Virus record (IMG/VR): IMGVR_UViG_3300046812_000144
Length of the DNA: 64,000 nucleotides
DNA from: an uncultured virus (IMG/VR IMGVR_UViG_3300046812_000144)
Taxonomy: Duplodnaviria > Heunggongvirae > Uroviricota > Caudoviricetes
Reading direction: 5' to 3' (one strand)
Position 1 is the first letter of the stretch. Each line of letters begins with the position of its first letter. A program made the translations under genes and the position numbers. The notes under the pieces are model-generated. The model did no database searches. It had not been told where the DNA came from and worked only from the letters and a program-made list of their open reading frames with translations. Below are positions 4,741 to 63,408 of the stretch, in pieces.

Positions 4741-5939
4741 AGTTCTATGGTGACATTCCAGTCTGGGGCGACCCGGTCGACGAGGGCGCACTCGCGCAGG
4801 CTCAGGTCTGCCTTCGCACCGCCAAGCACGTCGCGATGATGGCCGACCACCACCTCGGCTACGCCGTTCCGATCGGTGGCGTCGTCTCCTACGAGGGAGC
4901 CATCTCGCCCTCGGGCGTCGGCTACGACATCGGCTGCGGCAACAAGGCCGTTCGGCTCGACATCCCGGCGCACTACGTCACCGAGAACCTGCCGGCCATC
5001 ATGGACGCCATCGTGTCGCAGATCAGCTTCGGCATGGGCCGCACGAATGACACGCCCGTCGACCATCCCATCCTCGACCGGAGCGAGGCCCGCTGGAACC
5101 ACCCGGCCGTGCTCCCACTCAAGCGGATGGCGGCCGACCAGCTTGGCACCGTCGGCGGCGGCAACCACTACGTCGACATCTTCCTCGACCAGCAGGACCG
5201 CGTCTGGATCGGCGTCCACTTCGGCTCGCGTGGCCTCGGCCACAAGACGGCCACATGGTTCCTCAAGCAGGGTGGCGCGAAGGATGCCATCAATGCCGAG
5301 CCACTCGTGCTGCCTCTCGCGAGCGCCCTCGGTGCCGAGTACCTCCAGTGCATGACGCTGGCGGGCGAGTACGCCTACGCCGGCCGCGACTGGGTCTGCG
5401 CCAAGGTGGCCGAGATCATCGGTGCCGAGATCGTCGAGGAGGTCCACAACCACCACAACTTCGCGTGGCCCGAGGAGCACTTCGGTCAGAGCCTCATCGT
5501 CGTCCGCAAGGGTGCCACCCCGATGTGGCCCGGCCAGCGAGGGTTCATCGGAGGTTCGATGGGCGACCCGGCCTTCATCGTGCGTGGCTTCGACCCGTTC
5601 ACCATGGCGGCCAAGCGCGACCAGCTTCTCTCGATGTACTCGGCTCCCCACGGGGCCGGCCGCCTGATGTCGCGCACTGCGGCCAAGGGCAAGTTCGTGA
5701 AGGATGCGAACGGCAAGAAGCAGCGCATGCCCGGCCTCGTCCGGCATGATGCGTGGGCCAAGTGGATGGAGGATGCCGGCGTGGAGCTTCGCGGTGGCGA
5801 CCTCGACGAGGCTCCGCAAGCGTACAAGCGCATCGAGGAGGTGCTCGCGCACCACACCTACATGCAGATCGACCACACACTCCGCCCGATCGGCGTTGCA
5901 ATGGCCGGCCGGGACGTCGTTGACCCATTCAAGGACTAG
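4737..5939 (+). CDS. rtcB: RtcB-family RNA ligase (3'-P/2',3'-cyclic P to 5'-OH)
   Basis: Motifs DHHLGYAVPIGG, VGYDIGCG, GTVGGGNHY, HFGSRG, HNHHN, RKGAT, HGAGR and DEAPQAYK. GTG start at 4737. Confidence 0.95.
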   Translation: MKFYGDIPVWGDPVDEGALAQAQVCLRTAKHVAMMADHHLGYAVPIGGVVSYEGAISPSGVGYDIGCGNKAVRLDIPAHYVTENLPAIMDAIVSQISFGMGRTNDTPVDHPILDRSEARWNHPAVLPLKRMAADQLGTVGGGNHYVDIFLDQQDRVWIGVHFGSRGLGHKTATWFLKQGGAKDAINAEPLVLPLASALGAEYLQCMTLAGEYAYAGRDWVCAKVAEIIGAEIVEEVHNHHNFAWPEEHFGQSLIVVRKGATPMWPGQRGFIGGSMGDPAFIVRGFDPFTMAAKRDQLLSMYSAPHGAGRLMSRTAAKGKFVKDANGKKQRMPGLVRHDAWAKWMEDAGVELRGGDLDEAPQAYKRIEEVLAHHTYMQIDHTLRPIGVAMAGRDVVDPFKD

Positions 5940-7459: not shown

Positions 7460-8080
7460 AGATCACACTGAAAGAACCCGTCGAGATGAACGTCACCGCT
7501 CTCGTCCGCTACAAGGGACGCCCCGATGCCCTCTTCGCCTTCGAGATGAACGCTCACCAATACATCACGATGCTCGTTGGCCGGGGCTATGCCCGTGAGA
7601 ACTTCACGGTCGAGGTTCTCGCCTGATGAACTTCTTCAGCGTGCAGACCGAGTGGAACATCGTCACGGTCGTCGCCGTTCTCCTCGGCATCATGGTCGAG
7701 GGCCTCTTCATCAAGGGCATCTCCGACTTCTTCCGCTGGCGGTCGTACGGCTCGGCGTGGATGGGCATCGGCCTGAACATCGTTGTGGCCCTGATGGCGA
7801 TGGCGGTCATCATCGAGATTCACCTCCACCCATGAGGATCATGAAATCGCGGCACGACGAGTGGGCCGACTCGATGGGCGACGCGATGGGCCGGCCGCCG
7901 GTACCACGCCCGTGGTACAACGCCGAGTGGGTCTACATGATCGCCACGCTCCTCTTCGTCAACCTCTTCATCGGGACGCAGGTTGCACTCGTCATGAGGC
8001 ACTGGAGCTACTGGTTCACATGGCCGTACCACGCTGTCGTCTTCATCTACCACAACGTCTTCGCGGGGATGACATGGTGA
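7456..8080 (+). other. Three small hypothetical genes (7456-7626, 7626-7835, 7832-8080); two are membrane proteins
   Basis: Coupled ORFs; 7626..7835 is a paralog of 94..297. Confidence 0.65.
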
Positions 8081-8982
8081 AGTCGAAGGGTCTCGCAGTC
8101 GCCGTCGTCCGCATGCAGGTCGACGAGCTTCACGCCGGCCACAAGTTCCTGATCGAGTCGATGCGCGCCCTCCACGAGAAGGTGCTCATCGTGCTCGGCG
8201 CTTCACGCGCGCTGCTGTCGGTCACCGACCCCTTGCCGGTGGCCGCTCGGCGCGACATGATCCAGACGGCCTACCCGGACGTGACCGTGACTGCCCTCGC
8301 TGACGAGGCGTCGGATGTCGAGTGGTCGAAGAACCTAGACTGGCTCATCGGCATGTTCCGCACGGCGACAGGGACGGGCATCGAGCCGCCAACGCTCTAC
8401 GGGGCCCGCGACAGCTTCATCCAGCACTACAAGGGCATGTTTCCGACCTGTACGCTCACCTCGCCTCAGTCCGAGTCGGGCACCGACGTGCGGAACGCGA
8501 TCCAGATGGAGGACGACCCGGCCTTCCGGCGAGGGATGATCTTCGCTGCGAAGTCGCTCTACCCCATCTCGTTCCAGACTGTCGACGCGGCCATCATCCA
8601 GCAGGGCAAGGTCCTGCTTGGGCGCAAGAACAGGGACGGCGGCGGTTGGCGCTTCATCGGCGGCTTCGTCGACCCGACCGACGCCTCGCTCGAAGATGCC
8701 ATCCTCCGCGAGGTCCGTGAGGAGACCGGCCTCGAAGTAGCGCAGCCGACCTACATCGGCTCGTACCGCATCGACGACCCGCGCTACCCGAAGACGGGCC
8801 GCGACCGCATCCTGACTGCCTTCTTCTCGATGCCCGTCTCGTTCGGCTTCGCTTTGGCACGCGACGACGTCGACGCGGTCGCATGGTTCGACATGCAGAA
8901 GCTGCCTCCACTGGTCGAGAGCCACTGGCCTCTCGGCCTCGCGTTCCGCACCCACTTCTTTGGAGCCCTCCGTGCTCGCTAA
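8074..8982 (+). CDS. Bifunctional NMN adenylyltransferase / Nudix hydrolase (NadM-Nudix, NatV-like)
   Basis: Nucleotidyltransferase RMQ...HAGH and SGTDVR; Nudix box GGFVD...EDAILREVREETGL. Confidence 0.9.
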   Translation: MVKSKGLAVAVVRMQVDELHAGHKFLIESMRALHEKVLIVLGASRALLSVTDPLPVAARRDMIQTAYPDVTVTALADEASDVEWSKNLDWLIGMFRTATGTGIEPPTLYGARDSFIQHYKGMFPTCTLTSPQSESGTDVRNAIQMEDDPAFRRGMIFAAKSLYPISFQTVDAAIIQQGKVLLGRKNRDGGGWRFIGGFVDPTDASLEDAILREVREETGLEVAQPTYIGSYRIDDPRYPKTGRDRILTAFFSMPVSFGFALARDDVDAVAWFDMQKLPPLVESHWPLGLAFRTHFFGALRAR

Positions 8983-10351
8983 CAACATCCTGCTCCTCAC
9001 CGACTCGTACAAGGTCAGCCACTGGAAGCAGTACCCCAAGGGCACGACGCACGTCTTCAGCTACCTCGAAGCGCGCGACGGCGGCGAGTTCGGTCAGACG
9101 CTCTTCTTCGGCCTCCAGTACATCATCAAGAAGTACCTCGAAGGGCAGGTCGTCACCCGCGAGAAGATCGAGGAGGCGGCCATCTTCTTCAGCCGGCACT
9201 TCGGCAACGAGACGCTCTTCAACCGCGCCGGGTGGGAGCACATCCTGCTCGCGCACGACGGGCATCTGCCGGTCATCGTCAAGGCCGTGCCCGAGGGCTC
9301 TGTCGTCCCGACGGGCAATGTGCTCCTGACGATCGAGAATACGGACCCCGAGACCCCGTGGCTCGTGAACTACTTGGAGACCCTGCTCGTGCAGGTCTGG
9401 TACCCGACGACCGTCGCGACCCAGTCCCGCTACATGAAGCAGGTCATCCGCGACTTCATGGAGACCACGGGCAGCAGCTTGGCCGGGCTCGACTTCAAGC
9501 TGCACGACTTCGGCTACCGTGGCTCGACGAGCGTCGAGTCGGCCGGCATCGGCGGCTGCGCGCACCTCGTGAACTTCAAGGGCACCGACACGATGGCGGC
9601 CCTTCAGGTCGCGCACGAGTACTACGCCGAGGCGATGGCCGGCTTCAGCATCCCGGCCGCCGAGCACTCGACGATCACTTCATGGGGTAACGAGCGTGCA
9701 GCCTACGAGAACATGCTCGACCAGTATCCGACGGGTCTGGTCGCGGTCGTGTCGGACAGCTATGACATCTTCAACGCCGCAGACAAGATCTGGGGCGTGG
9801 AACTGCGCGACAAGGTACTCTTCCGCGACGGCACCGTCGTCATTCGTCCCGACAGCGGCAATCCTGTCGCCGTCGTCATCAAGCTGCTCGACATCCTCGG
9901 GCAGCGGTTCGGCACCTCGCTGACGCCGACCGGCCACAGGCTCTTGAACCCGAAGATCCGCGTCATCCAAGGCGACGGCATCGACCGCAACATGCTCCTC
10001 TCGATCCTGCGTAACATGATGGCGGCCGGGTGGGCTGCCGACAACCTCGCGTTCGGTTCGGGCGGCGGCCTGCTCCAGAAGGTCAACCGCGATACGATCC
10101 GCTTCGCCATGAAGTGCAGCGCGATCAAGATCAACGGCCAGTGGAACGACGTGCAGAAGCACCCGTCCACCGACCCGTCGAAGAACTCGAAGGCCGGCCG
10201 GCTCATCCTCTGCAACGATGGCACGGAGGAGTACACGACGGCGCGCGAGGGCGCGGGCAGTAACTACCTCAGCGTCGTGCTGCGGAACGGCTGGATGCCC
10301 CGGACGCAGACACTGGCCGACATCCGTTCGCGGGCGCAGGACAACCTGTGA
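8972..10351 (+). CDS. nadV: Nicotinamide phosphoribosyltransferase (NAMPT)
   Basis: TDSYKVSHWKQYP, WYPTTVAT, LHDFGYRG, GTDT, SIPAAEHST, VVSDSYD, RPDSG, IQGDG, FGSGGGLLQ and RDT. Confidence 0.95.
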   Translation: MLANNILLLTDSYKVSHWKQYPKGTTHVFSYLEARDGGEFGQTLFFGLQYIIKKYLEGQVVTREKIEEAAIFFSRHFGNETLFNRAGWEHILLAHDGHLPVIVKAVPEGSVVPTGNVLLTIENTDPETPWLVNYLETLLVQVWYPTTVATQSRYMKQVIRDFMETTGSSLAGLDFKLHDFGYRGSTSVESAGIGGCAHLVNFKGTDTMAALQVAHEYYAEAMAGFSIPAAEHSTITSWGNERAAYENMLDQYPTGLVAVVSDSYDIFNAADKIWGVELRDKVLFRDGTVVIRPDSGNPVAVVIKLLDILGQRFGTSLTPTGHRLLNPKIRVIQGDGIDRNMLLSILRNMMAAGWAADNLAFGSGGGLLQKVNRDTIRFAMKCSAIKINGQWNDVQKHPSTDPSKNSKAGRLILCNDGTEEYTTAREGAGSNYLSVVLRNGWMPRTQTLADIRSRAQDNL

Positions 10352-10958: not shown

Positions 10959-11209
10959 TGAACTATCCCACCGTCCTCAGCCCGTGGTTCGTGGTGCAGA
11001 AGCTGAGGGCCGCGCACGACACGCAGCCCGAGGACGTGCAGAACGTGTACTTCTGCTCGCAGGAAGTCTCGCCTGACGAATGGACGACTGACAAGAAGAA
11101 GGCGATGCTCATGATGTCCATCCACTCGGCGGCACAGATCTCGAAGGCAACAGGCGGTGAGATCCGGGCCCTCGTCACCCAAGAAGACTCAGCGGAGTTC
11201 GGTCGATGA
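10958..11209 (+). CDS. Hypothetical protein
   Basis: TGATG coupling to the upstream gene. Confidence 0.6.
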   Translation: MNYPTVLSPWFVVQKLRAAHDTQPEDVQNVYFCSQEVSPDEWTTDKKKAMLMMSIHSAAQISKATGGEIRALVTQEDSAEFGR

Positions 11210-11484
11210 TCCAGCCACTCGGTAACAGGGTTCTCATCTCGCGCATGCCGGAGCCGAAGCCGGTCACGTCGCTCATCATCCAGCCCGACTCGGTGCTCGA
11301 CAAGCCGTCGCAGTTCGGCATCGTGCTCGCCATCGGGACGAAGGTGCGCGAGTCGCTCGCGGTCGGCGACACGGTCGTCTTGCGCGACTTCAGCGGTGCG
11401 CCCGTTTCGGCCGACATGGCCGAGGGCATCGACAACGCCTTCATGATCGTCGAAGACGACATCCTCGGAGTCCTCAATGCGTAA
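11206..11484 (+). CDS. groES: Co-chaperonin GroES (Cpn10)
   Basis: MIQPLGNRVLI...IIQPD...GIVLAIG...VGDTVVL...IVEDDILGVL. Confidence 0.9.
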   Translation: MIQPLGNRVLISRMPEPKPVTSLIIQPDSVLDKPSQFGIVLAIGTKVRESLAVGDTVVLRDFSGAPVSADMAEGIDNAFMIVEDDILGVLNA

Positions 11485-12565: not shown

Positions 12566-13267
12566 GTGGACGAGCAGCAAGTCGATCAGCCGGCAGTACC
12601 CGAAGTCGAGGTTCCCGCGTTCCTTCGTGATGTCGACCCGGCCAAGCGCGCCGAGGTGCTCGCGAAGCTGGCGGCGGCCCGCGCCCTCGGAGCCCAGAAC
12701 GCGGCGGCCGAAGCTGAGCAGCCGGCCGAGGAGCCTGCCGCTCCGCAGGCGCAGGTCCTGTTGGGCAAGGATGTCGACTGGACCGCCTACCGGCTCCAGT
12801 ACAGCGTGAAGCATCTGTACCCCGAGTCCCGCTACCAAGACACGCCGCAGGGTCCGCACTGGGTCGCGATGGTGGATGAGTTCTTCTCGACCGAGCGTGA
12901 CTTCCGCAGCCACGGCAAGCTCGTGAAGAATCTGCGTGGTGAGGAGACCGACCAGTTGAACCTCGGCATGTTCCTCAACGACATGCTGAACGGCCCCGAG
13001 GGCTGGAAGCTGATCTCGGTGCTCCCCTCGTCGAGCGGGCGCGCCGGCATCCTGATGCAGCGTCAGGTCCCGGTGCTCCTGCCGCACCCCGAGAAGATCG
13101 AGACCGAGACGACCGTCGAGGCTCCGAAGGACGAGGAACTGGCAGCGACGCAGGCGGCAGCGGATGCCTTCGCAGCAGAGGTTGGTGGCGCGGACGTCGT
13201 CGTCGAAGAGACCGAAGACGTGCGCGACGACGCGGAGAACCCGCAGGCAGAAGGAGACCAGCAGTGA
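12566..13267 (+). CDS. Hypothetical acidic protein
   Basis: GAGGAG RBS; long ORF. Confidence 0.7.
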   Translation: MDEQQVDQPAVPEVEVPAFLRDVDPAKRAEVLAKLAAARALGAQNAAAEAEQPAEEPAAPQAQVLLGKDVDWTAYRLQYSVKHLYPESRYQDTPQGPHWVAMVDEFFSTERDFRSHGKLVKNLRGEETDQLNLGMFLNDMLNGPEGWKLISVLPSSSGRAGILMQRQVPVLLPHPEKIETETTVEAPKDEELAATQAAADAFAAEVGGADVVVEETEDVRDDAENPQAEGDQQ

Positions 13268-14238
13268 ACAGCTTTTCAGCGTACCCCAAGGTGTGGAACC
13301 TCGGTCATCCCTCGGTGGCCGACATCCTGCTCGACGACGTGATCGTCGAGGAGAAGGTCGATGGTTCGCAGTTCAGCTTCGGCCTCGACGAGAACGGGGT
13401 GCTCAACATCCGCTCGAAAGGCGTCGTGATGAACATCGACGCGCCCGAGGGCATGTTCAACAAGGCCGTCGCGACCGTCAAGGAACTGGCGGCCGAGGGC
13501 CTGCTCCGTGCGGGCTGGACGTACCGCGCCGAGTTCCTCCAGCAGCCGAAGCACAACGCGCTCGCGTACGACCGTGTGCCGAACAAGCACCTGATCCTGT
13601 TCGACATCACGATCGGCACCGAGACGTACCTGTCGCGCACCGGCAAGGAGGACGAGGCTGCCCGCATCGGGCTGGAGATCGTGCCCCTCATCTTCCGGGG
13701 CCGGATCACGGACATCGACTTCTTCAAGTCACTCCTCAAGCAGACTAGCATCCTCGGTGGGCAGCAGATCGAGGGCGTCGTCGTGAAGAACAACGACCGC
13801 TTCGGCAAGGACGGCAAGCCGCTGTTCGGCAAGTTCGTCAGCCCGGAGTTCCGCGAGGTCCACAAGGGCGAGTGGAAGAAGGCCAACCCGCTGTCGCAGG
13901 ACATCATCGACCAGTTGGTCGCGCAGTACCGGACGCCGGCCCGTTGGGCGAAGGCCGTCCAGCACCTGCGTGAGGCCGGCAAGATCCAGAACATGCCGCA
14001 GGACATCGCGCTGCTTCTGCCCGAGGTCGTTCGCGACATCGAAGCCGAGTGCATCGACAAGATCAAGGACACGCTCTTCAAGTGGGCGATGGCGAAGGGC
14101 CTCAAGCGCGGCGTGACGGGTGGCCTGCCCGAGTGGTACAAGGCGTCGTTGCTGGAGCAGCAGTTCGCCCCGGCAGCCGAGCCGCGCAATGCGGCATACA
14201 CCGACGCATACACGGTCCACGTCGACCCCGCAGTCTGA
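13264..14238 (+). CDS. ATP-dependent RNA ligase (Rnl2-like)
   Basis: Motif I EEKVDGSQ, III AEF, IIIa FDI, IV EGVVVK and V GKFVS; no OB domain recognised. Confidence 0.82.
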   Translation: MNSFSAYPKVWNLGHPSVADILLDDVIVEEKVDGSQFSFGLDENGVLNIRSKGVVMNIDAPEGMFNKAVATVKELAAEGLLRAGWTYRAEFLQQPKHNALAYDRVPNKHLILFDITIGTETYLSRTGKEDEAARIGLEIVPLIFRGRITDIDFFKSLLKQTSILGGQQIEGVVVKNNDRFGKDGKPLFGKFVSPEFREVHKGEWKKANPLSQDIIDQLVAQYRTPARWAKAVQHLREAGKIQNMPQDIALLLPEVVRDIEAECIDKIKDTLFKWAMAKGLKRGVTGGLPEWYKASLLEQQFAPAAEPRNAAYTDAYTVHVDPAV

Positions 14239-25639: not shown

Positions 25640-25716
25640 TGGCATGTAGCTCAGTTGGTAGATGCACCCGTCTGTTAAACGGGAGGTCGCAGGTTCGAGT
25701 CCTGCCATGCCAGCCA
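25640..25716 (+). tRNA. tRNA-Asn(GTT)
   Basis: Acceptor TGGCATG/CATGCCA, anticodon arm CCCGT-CTGTTAA-ACGGG, T arm GCAGG-TTCGAGT-CCTGC, G73 and encoded CCA. Confidence 0.95.
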
Positions 25717-28986: not shown

Positions 28987-31900
28987 CTACAGGCCGACCT
29001 TCTTGATGAAGGCACGGACACGGTTCATCTGCTGTTTGTACCACGCTGGCTGATCGCGGTAGTCCTGCGGGGGCAAGTACTGACGACCATGGTAGCCCGT
29101 CTCGATGGTCTTCTTCCAAGCACCACCCGGTCCGAGCAACGCGATCGCGAACTGCTTGTTCTTGTGAGCGAGGTCGAGTGCCTTGGTCTCATCCTTGACC
29201 ATTACATTGAGGTCGATACTGAACTTGCCCGTGGGCTTGCCTTCAGAGTCTGCAATACGCCAGACTCCGATCGTAGGTTTGAGTCCCTTGGCTTTCAGTT
29301 CCTTGATGAGCGGTTCAACCTGCTGACGGAACTTGAGGATGCGGCCGGGATAGAGCCGGTCACGATCTGTGTTGTGCGTCAGCATCGAGACGACATTGCC
29401 TTCATGCGTCGCCGGCTCGAACGTGTCTGGATCGAACGTATGCCCTGTGTGCTCTCCGTTGCCAGAGACCTCAGTCCAACCGTTCTCTCCCTTCGCGATA
29501 CCCCGTCGAACGGGCTCAAGAGCTTGGTAGAGGTTCTGCATCATCTTCAGATGACCATTGACCTGCTGCACGTATTCCTCGGGCGTGAGCCCACCGAGCT
29601 TACGCTCGACGAGATCTTCGAGGGGACGAGCGGAGCCCGTCTTCGTCGAGGCTGCACGGCCGCCGATCGCTTCCTTCTCTTGGATCGAGCCGACGCGCGC
29701 GCCTTCCCAGACGGCCGCTTGGAACTCGGCCGGGGTCATCCCATTATCGAGCGCCAACTGGCGGACCGCGTTCTCGTACAACTTGTAGTTGTTCGGCTTG
29801 AGCGCCGTCACGTCGTTCATCTTGAGCGCGCGGAGCATCCACCGGTCGAGCACGACGGCATTCGGGTCGCCCCGGAGCGCGTCGAGGAAGTTCTTGATCT
29901 TCGTGTTCTCGGGCAGTGCCTTGCCCGCCGCTGTATCCTCAAGCTGACCGCGCATGGAATCGCCACGGAAGCCCTCGAAGGGCATTCCAGCCTTCCACTG
30001 TGCGTACGCCTTGAGAGCCATTGCAGCGCCGGACTCGGTCTGGCCGTTGGCCGACGTGACCGCGAGGAAGCGGAGGAACATGTCCGAGTCTTCCCCGAAT
30101 CGCTGCTTCGCCCACGTTGCCGTCTTGTTGTACCAGCCCATGCCGTACTTGCCTGAGTCCTTCAGGTCAAGTAGCTCTTTCAAGTTCGCGTCAGCCGTGC
30201 CCGTGTCCTTGAACATACGGACGAAGTGCTTCTGTGCCAGTGCCGAGATCTTCTCGATGAAGGGCTTTACGACCTCGCCGTACTTGCCGACGAGGTATGA
30301 CGCGAAGCTCTCGGGATCGCGAAGCTGCTTGGCGAACATACTGGCAGCCAAGTCGAGAGCCGCGTCCCCGATCATCGTCGGGTCGAAGCCCGCGTTCGCG
30401 CGGCCGAGCTTACTGTTGAGGCGTGCCCTCGCTGCTTCCGCAACCTTGTCGAGAGACGCCGCGACCTGTGCCTGATGCTGGCCGATCGGCTGGCGGATGA
30501 CGTCCGCCGTTGCCATCTGGCCTTCGGGCAGCTTCGTGCTCGCGGTGATCTCGAACCCACGGGGCGCGAGGTAGTTCTTCATCTGCTTCTCGATCGGGAT
30601 CTTGCCCCCGTTCGAGTCGATCTTCGTCAGCCGCATCGTGACGGGCACACCGTGCTCGTCGGCCGTCGTGGTGATATGATCGAGGACCTTGCCCAGTGCG
30701 CCACGCTCGGCCTGCACGCCGCCGGGGAGCCCGAGCCGTTCGATATGCAGCGCGCCGTTCTGCTCCTTCACGACTGCGTGTTCACCCACGGACAGCTTGC
30801 CGAGGGCCTCAGCCGCCCGGTTCGCGGGCGCTTCGGGTGTGGCTGGCGAGGCAGGAGTCGCACCTGCAACCTCCGCGTTCAGAGCGCGGGGCTCCACTGT
30901 TGAGCTACTCGCCGACGGTGCAGCCGGCGCGAGAGCCTCCTCGCGCGGCGTTACGACTGGGGCCGGGACAGCAGCCGGGGCCGCCTCCACTACCTTGGCG
31001 CGCGGCTTCTTCAGCGGGGTCTCGGGGACACCGAGGACCTCGCGCACGCGCGCGTCCCGCATCGCCGGAGTCACCTCGGGCTGCGGCGGGACAGCGAGCC
31101 GCTCGCGGGGCTCGATGGCAGGCTCGGTGTTCGGAGCGATGCCGCTCGCGGGCGGGGCTTGAAGCTCATTCATCTGTGTGCGGAGACCGGTCGGCGGAAG
31201 CTGTGCTTCGCCCTGCATGACCGGACGCGGTTCGAGTGGCCGCGTCTCCATCGTCGGTGCGGACTCGGCCACTTGGCCGGGGCCCGCGAGCGCGCCGGGC
31301 GACGTCAGCGAGGGAGGCCCGCCAGTCGGCTCGGTTGGAGGCAACGCGACAGCGCCGAAGTTCGCCGTCTCACTCTCGGCCGCTTGCGCGAGCTTGATCT
31401 TGTTTCCGATGGCGTCGATAGCCCGAAGACCAGCAGCCGTCTGGAGCGCATCAGAACCGTGCTCTGACGCGATGATGTTCTGGGCAGCGACAAACGGATC
31501 GCCTTCAAGCGGGTACTGCGTACGATCAGCCCGGAACCTTGTGGCGGTGTTCGCAATCTGATCGGACTGCACGCGGAGACGGTACGCTTCGGCACCCTTC
31601 TCGCGCTCTTCTGTGGCCTTCGCTTTCGCAGCGTAGTCTGCTTGGTTCTTCTTGAGAGCCGCCGTATTGGCTTCACTCACCTCCTCTGCCACTGCATTGG
31701 CCTTGGCCTCAGCCCGAGCGGCGTGCTCACCGGGGAAGCGGGCGATTGCACCAGCCGTCTCACCGATTAGACCGAGACCACCGCCGAGCAGAGCACCACC
31801 CTTCACACCAGTTGCGCCTTCCTCGACACCACCACGGACCATCTCGCTCGCGACTTCCGCCGGGCTAAGATTGGCTGCGCTGGCTTCAAGGGCCGCACGG

Positions 31901-52415: not shown

Positions 52416-54362
52416 TCATACGGGTGCGCGGGGTGGAATCCAGCCGTCCTCCTCGAAGCCACGGACGCCGTCGTCGAGGTAACCGGAAGCCCGGAGTTCA
52501 TCGCGCTCGGCCATCATGGTGAGGAGTTCGTCGTTCGTCATGGGCTTGCCCATGTCCTTCAGGTCGTCATCCCACGGGCGACGGACTGTTGTTCCCTCGT
52601 CCTGCACGAGACCGGGGTCCGTGACGGGCGGTCGCCACAGTTTCGGGGCGAAGCCGTCAGCCGCTGCATCGGCAAGGTCGTCGTGTGAGACCGTGTCAAC
52701 CTTGAGGATCTGGTTGACCATCTTCCGCACGATCGGCGTCACGATGAAGTGAGGGCACTGCACATAGACGAGCTTGTTCGTCTTCGGGTCGAGCACGGGA
52801 GGCGGGCACTTGCACTCACCCCTGTTGAGGAGGATGCGCGCGTAGCCGCCCTGCCAGTGACCGGCCGCTGTACGGATGCGGGACTTCTTGTCCTTCGTAC
52901 GGTTGAACTGCATGAACTGGTCGTCGCCGAAGTTGAAGCCGGCGGTGCGAAGGAGGCCGAGGATACGGTTCTTGTAGACGCCCTCTTTGCCACCCGGCTC
53001 GGTCTCGTCCGTGATCGCGCGGATGAAGATGCCGCGACGGCGGAGGTTGACGAGGACGGCAATCAGTTCCTTGTTGAAGTCCTCTTCACGCCACTCGTTC
53101 GAGGCGCGGAGGAGTTCGGTGTCGAGGTAGAGCACGCCGTTGTTGCGGGCGTCCTTCAGCCAGACCACGATCACAGAGTCGTCACCGCGCCCGATGTTCT
53201 CCTTGTTCTTGAACGCCGTGTCGATGTGGACGGTTGCCCACTCGACCGTCACATCCCAGATGAAGTCCGGGTAGGAGACGTAGAGCCACGGGATCTGCCC
53301 CTCGACGAGCGGAGCGTGCTCCGATGCGCCGGGGTTGTTCTGCTGCTGGCCTGCGAACTCCTCGGCGTTGATGCGCTTGCGTCGCGCGATCTCGGCCACG
53401 GTCCACATCTTCGGGTGCGTCGGTAGGCCGGTGGTCTCGTCCTCGGTCTGCCAGAAGAAGACGTGCCAGATGCCTTGGCCGAAGGGCACCTTGTCGAACA
53501 TCGACATGTGCGGGCAGGGCATGCCGGTCCACGAGGCGACGCCATCCTCGTGCATGTGGTAGCCCGCGACGTCATCGTCGAGGTACCGGGTGCATGTGAG
53601 GACACGGAGTCCGTTACGGTGGAGCGCGTTGGCCGACGACATGAAGGCTGACTTCTGCCCTCGCAGGTAGGCCGAGCGGTCCTTCTTCAGCTTCTCCTGT
53701 TCGAGCGGGTCATCCCAGAAAGACTGGCGCGGGTGGTAGCCCGTCGCGCCGATGCCGGCGGACGAGGCGTCGAACGAGGGCTCGCCGATGTTGCGGGCGC
53801 GCCGATAGGAGTGCTTGATGAATGACTTGGTGCGCTCCTGCGCGCCAGTCACCCAGTCGCCGTAGAGCCATACGAACCACGAATCCGGGTCGTGGTTCTT
53901 CCCCCCACCGCAGACTGCAAGGATTGACCCGAGGATGTCACCGGACAACTCGTCGGTCGCAGACTGGATGAGGGTCGTCATGTCGGGGTCGTTCAGGTGC
54001 GACCACAGCGACCCGGCTTTAGTCGATGAGACCGTCTTCCCGAAACCACGCGGCAGGAGAGAGATCAGGTTGTACTGCTCGGGGATGCCAGCGAGGGCGT
54101 GAGCCTTCCACTGGAGCAGGTGAGTCTGGAGCCATGTGGTGTACGGGATGTGAAGCGGCTCGTACAGCCACTGGGGCTCTGCGGGATGCGACGCGAGGTA
54201 GTGCTCCGCGCCCCATGCGTGGCGAAGGAAGTGCCACAGGGAGCGAGGGTGCGTCGACCGCATGGGGTTTACATGCCACGCTTCCGGCGCGCAGATCGCC
54301 CGCCAGAGGACCCGCTCGGCTTCCATGTCCCAGTCTTGACGAAGCGCAGAAACTTGAGCCAC
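52416..54362 (-). CDS. terL: Terminase large subunit
   Basis: Walker A PRGFGKT, Walker B WDDP and TRY; nuclease motifs HIDTA, DDSVI and HDDLADA. Confidence 0.92.
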   Translation of the reverse strand: MAQVSALRQDWDMEAERVLWRAICAPEAWHVNPMRSTHPRSLWHFLRHAWGAEHYLASHPAEPQWLYEPLHIPYTTWLQTHLLQWKAHALAGIPEQYNLISLLPRGFGKTVSSTKAGSLWSHLNDPDMTTLIQSATDELSGDILGSILAVCGGGKNHDPDSWFVWLYGDWVTGAQERTKSFIKHSYRRARNIGEPSFDASSAGIGATGYHPRQSFWDDPLEQEKLKKDRSAYLRGQKSAFMSSANALHRNGLRVLTCTRYLDDDVAGYHMHEDGVASWTGMPCPHMSMFDKVPFGQGIWHVFFWQTEDETTGLPTHPKMWTVAEIARRKRINAEEFAGQQQNNPGASEHAPLVEGQIPWLYVSYPDFIWDVTVEWATVHIDTAFKNKENIGRGDDSVIVVWLKDARNNGVLYLDTELLRASNEWREEDFNKELIAVLVNLRRRGIFIRAITDETEPGGKEGVYKNRILGLLRTAGFNFGDDQFMQFNRTKDKKSRIRTAAGHWQGGYARILLNRGECKCPPPVLDPKTNKLVYVQCPHFIVTPIVRKMVNQILKVDTVSHDDLADAAADGFAPKLWRPPVTDPGLVQDEGTTVRRPWDDDLKDMGKPMTNDELLTMMAERDELRASGYLDDGVRGFEEDGWIPPRAPV

Positions 54363-56024: not shown

Positions 56025-56419
56025 CTAGCCTCCTTGTCGGAGTCGATGAGTTTCGCGTTGATCGCCTCGGTCCACAGAGACACGCGCTTTGGTGACTTAC
56101 GAATGTAGGCGACCATGTGTGCATCCATGGCGAGCGCGAGGACCTCGTCGAGGTCGTCCTTGAAGCGCCCAAGCGACATGGGGTACACCATGACGTGGAG
56201 CAGTTCGTGGACCACGGTGCCGATGTGGTCGACGTTGCCCGTCTGTTGGTTTGCGTCGACCTTGATCTTGATGTCGGTCGGCGGCATGATCTCGTTCCAG
56301 AGGTTGTGCCCCTGCTGCGCGGTCATGTGCTGATAGGTGAGCGTGACTTCAGGGTGCCGGAGAAGTTCCAGCATCACCCGGTGGAGCGACTGTGTCGATA
56401 GTGGATACGAGCCCTTCAT
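56021..56419 (-). CDS. HExxH (zincin-like) protein
   Basis: TVVHELLH followed by a distal Glu. Confidence 0.55.
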   Translation of the reverse strand: MKGSYPLSTQSLHRVMLELLRHPEVTLTYQHMTAQQGHNLWNEIMPPTDIKIKVDANQQTGNVDHIGTVVHELLHVMVYPMSLGRFKDDLDEVLALAMDAHMVAYIRKSPKRVSLWTEAINAKLIDSDKEAR

Positions 56420-56996
56420 GAGCTTCCTCCCTCGCTTCGAGGCGGGATGAGAGAGCCCTAACGACGTCGGCTGCCGGGTAGGAGGCGAAGAGCACCTCGA
56501 CTACGAAGTCGACGTCGGCGATCGACGAGGTCAGGTCCTTGTAGCGGGTGAAGGCCATGGCGCGCGTGAGGGGCGGGCCCGGCCCAAGGTCACGGATCTT
56601 GACGGCATCGCGGAGCTTGCCCCACTGGACGGAGGCGCTCATGCGCGTGTCGGCATGGAGCTTGGGGTCGAAGGCGAAGCGGATGCACTGCTTGAGCATG
56701 CGCTTCTGGACTTCGTCGTCGTCGAGGTCTTCGAGGAGCGACATGTCAGCGAGTGCCATCATGGCGTCGTGGTCGAGCATCCCCGAGGGCGGGGCCGGAT
56801 CGGCCGGTGTGGCGTCGGGTAGGACGGAGGTCGCCTTCCGCGAGGGCGCGAGCTTGCCCTCCTCGACGAGACCCTTGCGCGCGATGGCGATGAGGGCCAC
56901 CGAGCAACCGGTACCAGCCGCCTGCTGCTCCTTCGTCTCGTCGGGGTGCGCGAGGATGTAGAGTCGGGCCTTCTGGAGCTTCGTCTGGGGGGCCAT
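56349..56996 (-). CDS. HTH protein, candidate terminase small subunit
   Basis: First gene of the late arm; N-terminal HTH-like HPDETKEQQAAGTGCSVALI; AAGGAG RBS. Confidence 0.55.
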   Translation of the reverse strand: MAPQTKLQKARLYILAHPDETKEQQAAGTGCSVALIAIARKGLVEEGKLAPSRKATSVLPDATPADPAPPSGMLDHDAMMALADMSLLEDLDDDEVQKRMLKQCIRFAFDPKLHADTRMSASVQWGKLRDAVKIRDLGPGPPLTRAMAFTRYKDLTSSIADVDFVVEVLFASYPAADVVRALSSRLEAREEAHEGLVSTIDTVAPPGDAGTSPAP

Positions 56997-57103
56997 AGGA
57001 ACTCCTTGCAAAGGTTTGACGTTAGATACGTCCGAGTATATGGACGGGACAGGGGCTGCCCACAAAGTCATGACATCCATGCGGGTCACTGGGGGGCCCT
57101 TGC

Positions 57104-57178
57104 TGGCACGCATCTTGCTTGGGCAAGGACCATGCCACGCTGCTGGCACGCTCTATGCGTAGAGCAAGGCCCGTGCCA
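57104..57178. promoter_or_regulatory. Four sigma54 (-24/-12) consensus sites in two convergent pairs
   Basis: +57104 TGGCACGCATCTTGCT; -57137 TGGCATGGTCCTTGC; +57144 TGGCACGCTCTATGC; -57178 TGGCACGGGCCTTGCT. Confidence 0.75.
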
Positions 57179-57184
57179 CAGGTC

Positions 57185-57206
57185 GGTGGGTAACTCTAGT
57201 GTACCA
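57185..57206 (-). promoter_or_regulatory. Extended -10 promoter with conserved phage motif, copy 3, facing the late operon
   Basis: TGG-TACACT-AGAGTTACCCACC; 18 bp identical to 4351-4368. Confidence 0.7.
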
Positions 57207-57597
57207 CGTTCCACCTTGCAACGCCCCCCGCATGCGCCACGAAGCGTGTTACCACACGCAATGAGCCCGGCGGGCGGAGCGCGGGATGCCGGTGTGTCCA
57301 TCCTGACACGGTCAGTTTCTAGCCGCTCCTCCCTCGCTGGCCCTGTCCGGGCAGAAGTGCCCTAACCCCATGGCGCACAAGCACTTAGACCATTCGCTCC
57401 CAGACGCTCTAGGATGCCCCACAATCGCGTCGGCCCCCCTCCGAGGATGGCCGCACGGGGATTTACCTAAGTCGTTGTCGCCCATGCATTTACGCCATTC
57501 GAGCCCGCTGGCGCTCGCCCGTCTCCGGGCATCCTAGGAGGCCGAGAACGCCCTCTCATTGACAACGCCTACACAAAACCGTTTCACTCTGCACCAC

Positions 57598-57737
57598 TGT
57601 GGCAACTTTGACACATGGACGCGCGAAACGCCTCGGGCGTTCTGCCCCGAAACACGTTGCGCTTTGCCCCAATCTGTGAGATGCTCCTCCTGTAAGTCAT
57701 TGTGCTGCAACGTGACAATCGTGGCACACGGATTGCA
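57598..57737 (+). promoter_or_regulatory. Sigma54-type promoter with upstream palindrome and IHF-like site
   Basis: TGTGGCAACTTTGACACA (57598-57615), TAAGTCATTGTG (57693-57704) and TGGCACACGGATTGCA (57722-57737). Confidence 0.65.
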
Positions 57738-57749
57738 CTGTTCCATGGT

Positions 57750-58450
57750 GGTAGCACGGTCGCCGGTCCGAAACCGGCGCGCGACACCGGAACGCACCGG
57801 CAGCCCGCCCTGATAACCGTATCTCGGTGGACGGCAAGCCGGCCGGCCCCGCGAGGGGCACCCGACAGGGCACACGGTGGAGTGACAGGGGAATCGGATG
57901 CACGCACAAGGCCCGCAGCACGCGAGCCCAACGCGGCCCCCACGGTCACATATGATGGACGCCGGCACACGCGAGCGGTCGCGGTGACGGGCAGCGCACG
58001 CAGTGCCACCACCCAACAGAGCCCTTCGGGGACAGCGAAGTCGAGGGTGTCAAGCGTGCGACAATGCCCCGAGCGAAGCGCCAGACTGTAAGGTGTCCAG
58101 ACTGTAGCACCCTGCTACGCTTCACCCTGCACTTACATCCCGGCCACCGCACGAACCAACGGCAACGCGAGCAGCGCGAGGGAAGCCCCGCGAGCCTGCA
58201 CCGCCGCCACCTCGTGCGGGGCCGGAGTGTAAGCGCAACAGTGTATCTTAAGAACCTACTACAACACCTGTGTGAGAGTCCCACCCCGTTACGGCGGGGG
58301 GTGGGCCCCCTCACGACGGTGTAAGGGGTGGGGGCCACAATGTGTAAGCCCCGCGAAGCGCCCCCTCTGGCTCTGTACCAAAACGCCGCCCTTCAACCAG
58401 AATCGCGTCGCACCCCTCACCACGCACAATCGCACCCCTTCCAATGCGGA
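57750..58450 (+). ncRNA. Candidate ~700-nt structured leader or large ncRNA
   Basis: No convincing CDS; GNRA and UUCG tetraloop hairpins and long-range helices. Confidence 0.45.
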
Positions 58451-58456
58451 GGCTCC

Positions 58457-61438
58457 ATGTTCAAGCACCTGAAGCGCGCCACCCTCGTCGAGTGTGAGTC
58501 CAACGACGCAGCCGGAAACGACCTGTACCTCATCGCCGTCTGGGCCGATGACGCCGAGACGCAGTCCGCCACCGTGTGGTGCGCTGAAGTCTTCCGCAAC
58601 GGCGGCTCCATCGTCCGCTGCTGGCACCCGACGCGCCGTGCGGCCGTCGCGTGGGCCAAGAGCGAAGTCGAGGCCGACATCCGCGTGTCGGTGCTCCGAT
58701 GACCTGCCGCTCGCCCAAGCACCCGTTCGTCGTGGAACTCCTCCTCAAGGGCCGCTGGCGCATCGAACAGACGTTCGCCGAGCGCGACGCTGCCCGCGAC
58801 TTCGCCGTCCAACTCCTCACCAGTGGCGTGCTCCGCGAGCCCATCCGCGTCCGCGCTCGCAAGGTGGCCTGACATGCCGCGCACCACGTTCGCCCTCGCT
58901 GCTTCGCTGAAGCCCGGCGACCTCGTCGCCACGTTCGACTCGGCCGACTCGCGCACCGAGGCCCTGCTCTGGCTCGAAACGCGCGCCTCGCACCGCATCC
59001 GCGTCAACCTCGACATCCTGACCATCGCGACCATCCGCGTCGACGAGCACCGCACGCTCACGTCCATCCGCATCGGAGGCACGCTGTGACGCACACCTCG
59101 CACATCCTGCTGCACCTGCCCGACCACCGCATCCTCTACACCGGCCTGTCGCGCACCGAGGCCGACAAGGCTGCTGCCGCCGGCCGTGCTGCCGGCTACC
59201 ACGTCACGACGCAGGCCGCTCCCGTCACCGGTTCACGCCGCTCCATCTGGCACTACACAATCGTCGGCATCACGGAGGCCGCGTGACACGCACCGGAACC
59301 TACCGCGCGCTGTATCTGTTCGCGGTCGCGGCTGACGCCTACGCGTTCGCCAAGCAGCTTCAGGAGGGCGTCGTCGCCTCATTCGGCGAAGGCGACGACC
59401 AGTGGGAAGGCCTCGACGTGTGCGACGCTGGCGCGACCATCACGGTCCACACGCGCGAAGAGCGCGACCCCACGCTGCGCCATGGCCTCATCAGTGTCGA
59501 GGCTCGCATCCCCATCGCCTACGTCCCCACCGACTACTGGTTCTCGCCCACCACGGACGACAACCTCATGACGGTCGACGAGCAGGGCAAGTCCACGCAC
59601 GGCGAGCCCGTGAAGTGGGGCCTGCTCCGCAACGCGTCCACACTGCCCACGCCGGGAGGGAAGTCATGAAGAAGTTCTGGGTGTATCTCACGGTCAACGG
59701 CATCACGCACGTCCGCTTCGTGGACGAGCGGCACCTCGACGAGACGCTGACGGCCTTCGCCAACACGTTCGCGACCGAGCCCTACACGGTCGAGCGGAAG
59801 GCCGCATGACGCTCGCCTACGTTGTCCTACTCGTGGTCGCCATCGTGCTCCTGCACGAGAACGACTACCCACAGCCGCCAGTCTGGCGCAAGCGAGGGCA
59901 CAAGTGATACTCGTCCACGTCGTAGTCGAAACGTCAGCGTGCTCCTTCGCTGAGTACTCGGTCCACGCCAACAACCGCTCGCGGCACGCCCTGTCGGGTG
60001 CCATCCGCAACGCCTTCCGCAAGTACCCCAACGCACGCTCGGTCGAGGCAGAGTTCGCCGACGAGCGCGACTCGCGTATCACGCTCACGCGCGCCAACAC
60101 GCTGCGCGCTCAGGAGGCATAATGTTCAAGCTGACCGACTTCACCATCGAACGCGCGGGCAAGAACTATGCGGTGTACCTCGCCGCACAGGCGTCGAACG
60201 GGCCCATCGCCACGCTGCCCACCGTCGAGGAGTGCGCCCGCTTCGTGCGTGCCCTCGTGGACGAGAGGCTCTGATGCCCACCTTCAAGTGGCACCACATC
60301 GCGACGGGCAAGTCCATCACGCTCGTCTGCACGCTCACGAACGGCAAGGTCTGCATGCGTGACGAGGACGGGAACCGTCTGTACCTGAGCAAGTCCGACC
60401 TCGCGGCCGAGTACAAGGCCGCCACGCTTCACTGGCAAGGGAGGTAGCACATGAGCAGCGGCGGGTACCAAGGCGCGCTCGAAGCAGCAGGCGCGACCGT
60501 CCACACGTTCGATTCATTCGGCGACTATCAGGGCTCGTGGTTCGCCAAGGTCACCTTCAACGGCGTGACCGGTTGGGTGCAAGGCGGCTACGGCTCGTGC
60601 TCGGGTTGCGATGCGTTCGAGGCCGAGATGGGCTACGAGCCCTACGACGTCGACGACGACGACTACGCCCACTATAAGGCTTCGTGGGATGCACGGCTCA
60701 AGAACTTCGGTGCCTCGTATCTCAACGCCCTCCAGACGTTCGACGAGGTCTTCGCGCCCTACAAGCGCAAGGTCGAGGGACCGCGTCTCGACTACGAGTG
60801 GCTCGACGAGGACGACCGGGCCATCTACGACTTCCTGAAGGAGAACCAGTGACCACCTACACGTTCACAGTCCCCGTGCTGCTCACCGTCACGGTGAACG
60901 CAGCGCACTCTGAAGACGCCGCTGAGGATGCGGCCTGTGCAGTCCACGCACTCAACGTCGACCTGTCGAACATGGCCGCGAGTGCTGGCAACGATGACAT
61001 CGTCATGAGTGACGGGCCGTACGACCTGACGCTCACCGATGTCTCACCCGAGGAGCGCGACTGATGGCAAAGCTCTTGCGGTTCGAGGTCACGGTCGAGC
61101 GCACCGAGACGACCGAGTACAAGCACATCGTGCTGGCCTACACGGAAGAGCAGGCCGAGCGTGTCGCGCTCAACGGCGGATACGAGGGCAGGACGACCGG
61201 CCCGCGCTTCGTCGACGAGGACGAGGAGGGCGAGTACATGGACGGCGACTCGGAGGTCAAGGACGTGACGCTCATCGAACTGAACGGCGACCACTACGTG
61301 AGCCCCATCGGCCGTGGTGACATCACCACCTGCGCGCTTTGCGGCGAGCCCGTCAGGTGGACAGGCACCGACCGCACCGAAACAACGCCCCTCATCCCCG
61401 GACCATGGGTCCACACCAACGCACCGGAGGTCAAGTGA
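58457..61438 (+). other. Array of about 12 small early hypothetical genes: 58457-58702, 58699-58872, 58874-59089, 59086-59286, 59283-59669, 59666-59809, 59904-60122, 60122-60274, 60274-60447, 60451-60852, 60849-61064, 61064-61438
   Basis: Repeated GGAGG RBSs and start-stop overlaps; layout typical of a host-takeover region. Confidence 0.75.
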
Positions 61439-62634: not shown

Positions 62635-63408
62635 ATGAAACTCTTCCTTGTCGGTGGCACCGTCCGTGACCACCTGTTCGGGCTGCCGCAGGGGAACGAT
62701 GTCGACTTCGCTGTCGAGGCCGAGTCGTTCGCTGAGATGGAGACGGTGCTCGTCGCACGCGGCCTGCGCGTCTGGCAGTCGCGGCCCGAGTTCGTCACGC
62801 TCCGAGGGCAGATGCCGCTCTCGGCGCTCGGCACCTTCGGGGGCCTGCTCGGGTTGCGTGGGGGCAAGCACGGCAAGGCGTCTTTCAATCCCGAGCACGT
62901 TGTAGTCGATGCCGACTTCACCCTCTGCCGTGCCGAAACTCAGTACAGCGATGGTCGGCACCCGGACAAGGTGACGCCTGCTGACCTGCTCACAGACCTC
63001 GCGCGCCGTGACTTCACGGTGAACGCTGTCGCCGTCAGCGAGGACGGTCAGTGGGTCGATCCGTTCCGTGGTCGGCGTGATGCCGAGTACAAGGTTCTCA
63101 GGTGTGTGGGTTCCGCGCTCCACCGTTTCGAGGAGGACCCACTGCGCCTGCTCCGTGCTCTCCGCTTCGCTGTCAAACTCGACCTGATGCTGGATGTCTG
63201 GCTCAGTCGAGCCCTCGACGACATGGCCGTCGTCAACCGCCTTGCCACGCTGCCGGTCGAGCGTGTCAGGGAGGAGCTTGGCAAGTCGTTCGCACACAAC
63301 TGGCTCGCAACCGCTCTCGCGCTCGCGACCGACTTCACCACCGTCGGCCACGCTGTGCAAGAGCACTTCCCCACACTGTGGCTGAAGGCCACGACAGAGG
63401 AGAGATAA
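62635..63408 (+). CDS. cca: CCA-adding tRNA nucleotidyltransferase (class II, short)
   Basis: LVGGTVRD, DVDF, DLARRDFTVNA, DPFRG and RFEEDPLRLLRALRFA. Confidence 0.9.
   Translation: MKLFLVGGTVRDHLFGLPQGNDVDFAVEAESFAEMETVLVARGLRVWQSRPEFVTLRGQMPLSALGTFGGLLGLRGGKHGKASFNPEHVVVDADFTLCRAETQYSDGRHPDKVTPADLLTDLARRDFTVNAVAVSEDGQWVDPFRGRRDAEYKVLRCVGSALHRFEEDPLRLLRALRFAVKLDLMLDVWLSRALDDMAVVNRLATLPVERVREELGKSFAHNWLATALALATDFTTVGHAVQEHFPTLWLKATTEER

What the first reader, a model, noticed from the sequence alone, without database searches (positions are those of the whole stretch)
57101..57180. Four sigma54 sites in two face-to-face pairs with ~40-bp period, in front of the late operon
Seen: two imperfect ~40-bp units. 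Each has a + strand and a - strand TGGCAYG-N4-WTGC site, with their -12 GC elements only 4-5 bp apart. They lie between the - strand extended -10 promoter (57185-57206) and the first late gene. Known: sigma54 holoenzyme binds this consensus as a stable closed complex and needs an AAA+ enhancer-binding protein; I saw no GAFTGA-type activator in this genome. Inference: the overlapping sites are probably mutually exclusive. They could be a roadblock or timing switch for late transcription, an RpoN decoy, or the late promoter itself, tied to host physiology.
Basis: partly seen in the sequence, partly recalled or inferred. Interest (0 to 1): 0.78.

Follow-up and report, generated by a model that had tools for sequence, protein, structure and literature searches.

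The report
Nose-to-nose sigma-54 sites near phage ends
This soil phage, many of its relatives and hundreds of unrelated phage contigs carry nose-to-nose pairs of matches to the binding site of the bacterial transcription factor sigma-54, often just in front of their DNA-packaging genes and rarely in bacterial genomes; the pairs likely park the host's RNA polymerase silently at the predicted genome-end junction rather than start genes.

Summary
Observation confirmed. Four sigma54-consensus sites form two face-to-face pairs (gaps 5 and 4 bp) at 57104-57178. A fifth, missed site lies at 57722. Chance gives 0.3 per window.

All five lie in the 1.4-kb gap between divergent early and packaging genes of a 63.7-kb podophage that encodes no sigma54 or activator. 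Relatives keep pairs here with freely varying spacers.

The same pair occurs in about 850 IMG/VR stretches but only 106 GTDB stretches. Shifting the -24/-12 spacing by 1 bp leaves 2 or 0. It often sits beside terminase genes, and just inside VpV262's terminal repeat, but 13 kb from the end in Pakpunavirus K8.

Best reading: a silent docking pad for host sigma54-RNA polymerase at the likely genome-end junction, probably a packaging landmark (0.36). Rivals: occlusion of the adjacent sigma70 late promoter, a bidirectional promoter, a sponge. A roadblock is disfavoured, and the late-facing arms are the weaker ones. Site 5 looks like a real sigma54 promoter.

Binding, termini and host are untested. 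The scan noted this on other DNA before (phiPMW and others); my ten paper searches found no description.

The parts
57104..57118 (+). sigma54 -24/-12 box 1, early-facing, innermost; pairs with box 2 (gap 4)
   Evidence: an early-facing box at this place in 10 of 18 relatives examined
57123..57137 (-). sigma54 box 2, late-facing
   Evidence: predicted start 57111 = G
57144..57158 (+). sigma54 box 3, early-facing; pairs with box 4 (gap 5)
57164..57178 (-). sigma54 box 4, late-facing; begins 8-13 bp downstream of the predicted sigma70 start
   Evidence: one spacer base varies in close strains
57092..57100 (+). G/C run between the array and the first late gene; candidate terminase cut or terminal-repeat edge (inferred)
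   Evidence: C4+A run within 330 bp of the first late ATG in 17 of 18 relatives, including those without pairs; similar runs between array and terminase genes in unrelated phages and at the left ends of LUZ24, RIO-1 and ICBM1
57193..57221 (-). candidate sigma70 late promoter (-35 at 57216-57221, -10 at 57193-57198, overlapping extended -10 at 57198-57206)
   Evidence: sequence; a leftward sigma70-like promoter is visible by eye at the same place in relatives; no TSS data
57294..57309 (.). GTGTC-N6-GACAC palindrome, candidate activator site about 150 bp upstream of the predicted start of box 4
   Evidence: only perfect copy in the window; perfect copies in the control region of L001, L009, L019, L023, L031, L033, none in 10 other distinct relatives
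57371..57386 (-). IHF-like site (motif derived here; IHF consensus from PMC3045617 passage)
   Evidence: 7 matches vs 2.56 expected, 3 of them in this gap
57469..57484 (+). IHF-like site
   Evidence: 0 mismatches
57599..57614 (.). second GTGTC-N6-GACAC-like palindrome, about 140 bp upstream of the predicted start of box 5
   Evidence: 1 mismatch
57694..57709 (+). IHF-like site directly upstream of box 5
   Evidence: CAA-N4-TTA 15-30 bp upstream of the distal box in 8 of 12 relatives
57722..57736 (+). sigma54 box 5, single, early-facing; looks like a real activator-dependent promoter (predicted start 57748)
   Evidence: kept also in relatives that lack pairs; G at +12 in 9 of 12
56349..56996 (-). 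first late gene, 215 aa, likely N-terminal winged HTH; TerS-like by position (inferred)
   Evidence: 62 homologs; weak MarR/AdcR and replication-O HTH matches; Atlas leads to HTH/Terminase_5 clusters at 0.88-0.92
52416..54362 (-). terminase large subunit
   Evidence: phrog_38, E 2.6e-30

Best explanation
The four boxes are two nose-to-nose pairs of sigma54 consensus sites at the early/late junction, which likely bind host sigma54-RNA polymerase as a stable, silent closed complex and would mark the predicted genome-end junction for the phage's packaging and end-processing machinery. SHOWN: exact -24/-12 consensus; tight face-to-face geometry selected across unrelated phages; no phage sigma54 or activator; position between terminase operon and early genes beside a conserved G/C run and IHF-like sites. 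ESTABLISHED KNOWLEDGE: sigma54 holoenzyme binds without opening unless an AAA+ activator acts (PMC7057263). INFERRED: (1) with a 4-5 bp gap both boxes share the -12/-11 melting zone, so the centre is held by one or two polymerases and activator access is probably hindered; (2) the junction is the chromosome end; (3) the parked enzyme serves as a landmark in a phage with no RNA polymerase of its own, as the paused T7 polymerase does at the T7 concatemer junction. Damping of the neighbouring sigma70 late promoter would be a local side effect.
For: About 850 IMG/VR stretches (estimate from 10 of 64 parts) vs 106 in GTDB. Spacing +1: 2 stretches; -1: 0; gap 10-17: 66. Back-to-back pairs are not phage-specific in count (about 250 vs about 320). 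Unselected flanks fit sigma54 (Y 0.77 before, W 0.86 after). Terminase or portal within 3 kb in 23 of 64 loci annotated. VpV262: six boxes, two pairs, at 173-346, just inside the annotated 1-138 terminal repeat. K8: 5 boxes inside its 1,188-bp terminal repeat. Pairs lie within 1 kb of a contig end in 20 of 87 contigs of 10 kb or more, 6.4 expected. PAK_P3: none of 4 boxes has a start site in the ONT-cappable-seq list. NtrC, DnaA and SlmA-type boxes cluster beside the pairs in other phages (11, 4 and 4 of 79 loci), as expected of a host-protein landing zone. T7 precedent: PMC3276506 passage.
Against: In K8 the face-to-face pair is at 80425-80458, 13.4 kb from the right end, before the early-gene block and not in the terminal repeat. 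41 of 64 annotated loci showed no terminase or portal hit within 3 kb. Five relatives with the full region have no pair, and 12 cultured phages (9 Zobellviridae, phiEco32, LUZ24, a Desulfofustis phage) have at most 2 scattered matches, so the pad is dispensable. The terminus of this phage is not mapped; X1 and X2 contigs run through the region at flat depth. Both late-facing boxes here have a purine at +12, with a palindrome at about -150. PAK_P3 has no pair, so its silence tests single boxes only. PAK_P4 has an RNA-seq antisense RNA whose annotated 5' edge (55850) falls in the pair. Contig-end enrichment can come from strain variation.
Confidence: 0.36

Rival explanations
1. Replication-coupled late switch. 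Sigma54 closed complexes would occlude the adjacent sigma70 late promoter while the genome is single-copy. After replication, hundreds of genomes with 5-10 boxes each would titrate the scarce holoenzyme and free the promoter.
For: Box 4 starts 8-13 bp downstream of the predicted sigma70 start. In L015, L019, L023, L029 and L037 a late-facing box runs straight into a sigma70-like -10 (read by eye), the glmY arrangement where sigma54 binding represses the sigma70 promoter (PMC3045617 passages). The phage has no sigma factor or antiterminator hit. The PAK_P4 pair lies 12 bp from an annotated sigma70 -35.
Against: In L063, L079 and L101 the array abuts the early-facing sigma70-like promoter instead. 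I saw no late promoter beside the VpV262 array (by eye). Relatives without pairs keep the same late operon. Occlusion needs no face-to-face geometry.
Confidence: 0.24
2. Activator-dependent bidirectional sigma54 promoter. A gap of 4 puts two divergent starts 19 bp apart around one melting zone; a host enhancer-binding protein would fire either arm and tie early or late expression to host state.
For: 33 of 62 loci with genes on both sides are divergent (crude ORF calls). NtrC-type boxes lie within 400 bp of pairs in 11 of 79 loci and in none of 254 kb further away. Palindrome at about -150 and purine starts for boxes 2 and 4. Box 5 has textbook promoter anatomy. PAK_P4 antisense RNA edge.
Against: Late-facing arms are the degenerate ones (12 vs 4 mismatches). 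Only 120 of 294 paired arms have a purine at +12, though 196 of 295 do at +11. Arrays of up to four tandem pairs are hard to read as promoters. Bacteria, with many sigma54 promoters, hardly use this geometry. The PAK_P4 RNA is annotated with a sigma70 promoter.
Confidence: 0.18
3. Sigma54 sponge: multiplied sites would strip the holoenzyme from host promoters (envelope stress, motility, RNA repair) during infection.
For: Box number varies from 0 to about 10 among relatives and reaches 30 in a 354-kb record. The phage carries its own RtcB, RNA ligase and CCA-adding enzyme; host rtcBA being sigma54-dependent is recalled.
Against: A sponge gains nothing from overlapping boxes or from one fixed position; gap 2-9 is 13-fold commoner than gap 10-17.
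Confidence: 0.13
4. The 34-bp inverted unit is bound by another protein (phage TerS/HTH protein or a different host dimer), and the sigma54 match is incidental.
For: The unit is a pseudo-palindrome next to a likely winged-HTH gene. One relative with pairs is binned in an Acidimicrobiales MAG, a group that usually lacks rpoN (recalled).
Against: The same motif occurs in phages of 32-68% GC with unrelated terminases. Half-sites occur alone and in tandem, and the gap varies from 3 to 8. Flanks match sigma54. No Sigma54_DBD in 49 phage records. That MAG bin does carry an RpoN gene.
Confidence: 0.07

Closest known systems
Bacterial sigma54 (RpoN) -24/-12 promoters and silent sites (PMC7057263, PMC4591121; passages)
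   Same: Exact consensus and spacing; most sites in E. coli are bound but transcriptionally inactive.
   Different: Overlapped nose-to-nose pairs in arrays, on phage DNA, at the early/late junction; this geometry is rare in 185,579 bacterial and archaeal genomes.
glmY/glmZ overlapping sigma70/sigma54 promoters (PMC3045617; passages)
   Same: A sigma54 box inside or beside a sigma70 promoter, with IHF sites and palindromic activator sites upstream; sigma54 binding represses the sigma70 promoter.
   Different: One same-strand box and a known activator (GlrR). Here opposed pairs, no known activator, and in this window the boxes lie just downstream of the sigma70 candidate.
T7/T3 RNA polymerase paused at the concatemer junction (PMC3276506; one passage)
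   Same: A parked polymerase at the genome junction serving terminase.
   Different: T7 uses its own elongating enzyme with gp3.5; this phage has no RNA polymerase, and no terminase contact is shown.
T5 injection-stop region with paired DnaA boxes (bioRxiv 10.1101/866236; passages)
   Same: Paired host-protein sites in non-coding terminal DNA, proposed to act structurally.
   Different: DnaA, not sigma54; T5 has a very long terminal repeat and two-step injection, neither shown here; that model is itself a hypothesis.
Sigma54-like promoter P015 of Pseudomonas phage YuA (PMC10914365; passage and supplement)
   Same: A report of sigma54 use by a phage.
   Different: Single promoter; its listed upstream sequence has no TGGCAY-N6-TGC match, nor does the YuA genome.

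Membership tests
sigma54 binding site | GG(-24) and GC(-12) in TGGCAC-N5-TTGC with fixed spacing | tested here: met
   spacing controls 2 and 0 vs about 850
sigma54 binding site | Pyrimidine before TGG and A/T after TGC (flank consensus recalled) | tested here: met
   0.77 and 0.86 over 144 distinct viral elements; in this window 2 of 5 and 3 of 5 boxes
sigma54 binding site | Bound by RpoN holoenzyme | not testable with these tools
   needs EMSA or ChIP
sigma54 binding site | Host encodes rpoN | tested here: inconclusive
   host unknown; the two MAG bins holding relatives (Binatia, Acidimicrobiales) both carry RpoN, but binning of phage contigs is unreliable
functional sigma54 promoter (boxes 1-4) | Cognate AAA+ enhancer-binding protein and upstream activator site at about -100 to -150 | tested here: inconclusive
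   no phage activator; palindrome at about -150 from box 4 but with no known binder
functional sigma54 promoter (boxes 1-4) | Transcript start about 12 nt behind the -12 element | not testable with these tools
   no RNA run listed for this stretch; none at 4 single boxes of PAK_P3
functional sigma54 promoter (box 5) | IHF site between activator site and box; conserved purine start | tested here: met
   IHF-like core in 8 of 12, G at +12 in 9 of 12 relatives; sequence features only
glmY-type overlapping sigma70/sigma54 promoter | sigma54 -12 overlaps the sigma70 -10 on the same strand | tested here: not met
   not in this window; seen by eye in 5 relatives
T7-type concatemer-junction pause | Phage RNA polymerase pausing at the junction | tested here: not met
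   no RNA polymerase among 107 proteins; works-like claim only
T7-type concatemer-junction pause | Position at the terminal-repeat edge | tested here: inconclusive
   met in VpV262, not met for the K8 pair, unmapped here
T5 injection-stop DnaA array | DnaA boxes in a long terminal repeat, two-step injection | not tested
   the window itself was not scanned for DnaA boxes; boxes near 4 of 79 other pair loci

The most novel reading that the evidence does not exclude
Many unrelated tailed phages have converged on an activator-proof, nose-to-nose sigma54 clamp that turns host RNA polymerase into a non-transcribing structural cofactor of the phage chromosome end, used for terminase recruitment, end anchoring or DNA entry.
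Probability: 0.3. Interest if true: 0.88.

Novelty: new variant of a known kind. Interest (0 to 1): 0.72.

Why it matters
Sigma54 has almost no known role in phage biology, and many silent sigma54 sites in bacteria have no assigned function. A geometry that is common in phages and rare in bacterial genomes points to a use of the closed complex other than starting RNA: a packaging landmark, a copy-number timer or a bidirectional switch. The same 4-bp-gap pair is present in cultured phages (PAK_P1, PAK_P4, K8, JG004, phiPMW), and 7-bp-gap pairs in VpV262, so each model can be tested directly. The motif may also help predict genome ends and rpoN-positive hosts for uncultured phages.

Tried and rejected
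Hairpin or cruciform: rejected. z = -0.90; spacers are self-complementary in only 4 of 144 viral elements vs 17 of 93 genomic ones.

Known RNA family: none at E <= 1 in 56900-58500.

Phage-coded sigma54 or activator: 0 of 49 records for Sigma54_DBD; 4 of 49 had weak AAA matches to Sigma54_activat, one over cut-off only with neighbouring stretches. 36 of these records are under 90% complete.

Roadblock: disfavoured by PMC4591121.

Terminus mapping: only contigs were available. X4 depth drops from 10.3 to 3-5 at 57289, X1 and X2 are flat; not evidence. No RNA holder listed.

Upstream contig ends of TerL relatives: 12 of 34 fall 2.6-3.9 kb upstream, but 6 fall in another bin and near-identical strains are included; weak.

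Cultured close relatives: none (best TerL 23.5%). BLAST with array DNA found only VpV262.

GTGTC-N6-GACAC is not enriched beside pairs outside this family.

JG004 carries a pair. A 30,000-mutant host screen gave 13 genes and the text has no mention of rpoN (PMC3120641 passages), but a survival screen cannot see packaging or late defects.

No fold of the first late gene was obtained, so its TerS identity rests on position and weak HTH matches.

Full report
OBSERVATION. The record is a phage of 63,699 bp unit length (the 67,385-bp contig repeats its start at 63,700). It has SU10-type capsid, portal and adaptor, a terminase, and a family A DNA polymerase; no RNA polymerase, sigma factor or sigma54 activator was found among the 107 proteins scanned. 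Late genes run leftwards from 56996, early genes rightwards from about 58457. TGGCAY-N5-WTGC occurs 5 times in the window against 0.30 expected, and all five lie in this gap: the four described (57104+, 57137-, 57144+, 57178-; gaps 4 and 5 bp) and a fifth at 57722+. The region folds no better than shuffles.

CONSERVATION IN THE FAMILY. TerL searches gave 48 and 80 overlapping loci. In 41 loci scanned, sigma54-like boxes number 91 in 186 kb upstream of TerL and 7 in 281 kb from TerL onwards; the +1-spacing control gives 1 and 10. Among 18 relatives lined up on the first late gene, 10 have pairs (13 pairs), 5 with the full region have none, and 3 are cut off by contig ends. Spacers vary freely. 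Early-facing arms carry 4 mismatches to consensus in all, late-facing arms 12. A C-run (window G-run 57092-57097) lies within 330 bp of the first late ATG in 17 of 18, also where pairs are absent.

The best-kept box is the fifth. It has an IHF-like core 15-30 bp upstream in 8 of 12 relatives and G at the predicted start in 9 of 12, with a GTGTC-N6-GACAC palindrome 110-180 bp upstream of the predicted start in 4 of them. That is the layout of a true activator-dependent promoter (PMC7057263 and PMC3045617, passages). I therefore separate box 5, a probable early promoter, from the paired boxes.

DISTRIBUTION. The face-to-face pattern is in about 850 IMG/VR stretches (estimate from 10 of 64 parts; 127 listed), in loci of 32-68% GC. 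The identical pattern is in 106 stretches of 596 Gb of GTDB genomes, with a flatter gap distribution, near-background flanks and 17 of 93 perfect hairpins. IMG/VR is redundant and its size in bases was not given; even at 50 kb per contig the rate would be over 30-fold higher, and the 127 loci hold 144 distinct elements. Controls in IMG/VR: spacing +1 gives 2, spacing -1 gives 0, gap 10-17 gives 66. Gap 4 is the mode (60 of 144) and 5 is next (31). Back-to-back pairs are about 250 in viruses and about 320 in genomes. Positions not in the search pattern fit the recalled sigma54 flanks (Y 0.77, W 0.86). None of 49 phage records encodes a sigma54 DNA-binding domain or a convincing activator. The binder is therefore most likely host sigma54.

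POSITION. I annotated 150 of 200 flanking ORFs; 23 of the 64 loci covered have terminase or portal within 3 kb, 41 do not (some loci are related). 33 of 62 loci sit between divergent genes. Pairs lie within 1 kb of a contig end in 20 of 87 contigs, 6.4 expected. In terminase-linked cases a G/C run usually separates the array from the terminase operon, and the annotated left ends of LUZ24, RIO-1 and ICBM1 begin in C-runs (by eye). VpV262 has six boxes with two pairs 35-208 bp inside its left terminal repeat. Against a universal end role: K8 has five single boxes in its 1,188-bp repeat but its pair 13.4 kb from the right end, before the early block; 12 other cultured phages have no cluster. NtrC-, DnaA- and SlmA-type boxes (motifs recalled) cluster near pairs in 11, 4 and 4 of 79 loci. 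This phage's own ends could not be mapped.

ACTIVITY. There is no RNA data for this phage. In PAK_P3, none of four single boxes has a start site among P024-P075 of the ONT-cappable-seq table, which cover the region (PMC10914365 supplement part 3; boxes). In E. coli most bound sites are inactive and roadblock repression was ruled out, while repression of overlapped promoters is known (PMC4591121, passages). On the other side, this window's late-facing boxes are perfect and predict purine starts (57111 G, 57152 A). The PAK_P4 record annotates an antisense RNA with a rounded 5' edge inside its pair, though assigned to a sigma70 promoter 12 bp away.

MECHANISM. A 4-bp gap places both -12/-11 melting points in one spot and the two predicted starts 19 bp apart, pointing away from each other. 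Whether two holoenzymes clash or co-bind is not known. Either way the centre would be held by a closed complex that needs no phage protein and, lacking an activator, does not move. I put about 0.85 on sigma54 being the binder and about 0.7 on the pairs being mostly silent. For purpose I favour a structural landmark at the genome-end junction (0.36), by analogy to the T7 polymerase that pauses at the concatemer junction and meets terminase (PMC3276506, one passage). Rivals: occlusion of the sigma70 late promoter relieved by genome replication (0.24), a host-activated bidirectional promoter (0.18), a sponge (0.13), another protein (0.07). These need not exclude each other. The host is unknown; the two MAG bins holding relatives both encode RpoN, a weak hint.

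LITERATURE AND NOVELTY. Ten full-text searches returned no description of face-to-face sigma54 pairs or sigma54 arrays at phage ends. The library lacks most subscription papers, including the original VpV262 and YuA papers, and bioRxiv supplements were closed. Seen as passages: PMC10914365 (plus supplement searches and part 3), PMC4591121, PMC3045617, PMC7057263, PMC3276506, PMC3120641, PMC3391216, PMC7693777, PMC2377431, 10.1101/866236; all others as listings only. Earlier notes of this scan report the same feature on other DNA. I reached the distribution and VpV262 results before seeing them, used them as leads to Pakpunaviruses, host-factor boxes and the T5 preprint, and do not count them as support. 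Verdict: a real, selected, phage-enriched variant of a known binding site with an untested but directly testable function.

Noticed in passing
window 57694-57750 and downstream to 58450: Box 5 looks like a true sigma54 early promoter (IHF-like site, conserved start G). It is followed by a long GC-rich leader; L019, L022 and L024 share a hairpin-like block there that could be a non-coding RNA or antitermination element. No Rfam match.
   Followed up: partly
window 4737-5939, 13264-14238, 62635-63408: RtcB, an RNA ligase and a CCA-adding/poly(A) polymerase-family enzyme: a tRNA-repair set, with tRNA-Asn at 25640-25716.
   Followed up: no
window 8074-10351 and 11206-11484: NUDIX/nucleotidyltransferase plus NAMPT (NAD salvage pair) and a lone GroES.
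   Followed up: no
window 30840-30914: ARAGORN calls a tRNA-Gln inside the 1321-aa virion gene; probably spurious.
   Followed up: no
G000 63700-67385: The contig's tail repeats its start and then continues into a diverged copy of the early genes, suggesting two strains in one assembly.
   Followed up: partly
L069, L073, L082, L109 and L077 around the pair: Near-perfect NtrC-type boxes flank the pair, on both sides in L069 and L073, with DnaA-, SlmA- and Fur-type boxes nearby.
   Followed up: partly
L574 1690-1830 (PAK_P1) and L575 2050-2170 (PAK_P3): Iteron-like direct repeats lie upstream of the sigma54 boxes before the early block; possible replication origin.
   Followed up: no
L581 (Acidimicrobiales MAG G051, contig C6): A distant relative (31% TerL) with two pairs is binned in an actinobacterial MAG whose bin carries an RpoN gene.
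   Followed up: partly
L273, L278, L279, L286, L293, L300, L302, L231, L253: One Desulfomonilaceae MAG supplies at least 9 of the 106 GTDB hits, all with gap 2; probably a repeat element.
   Followed up: no
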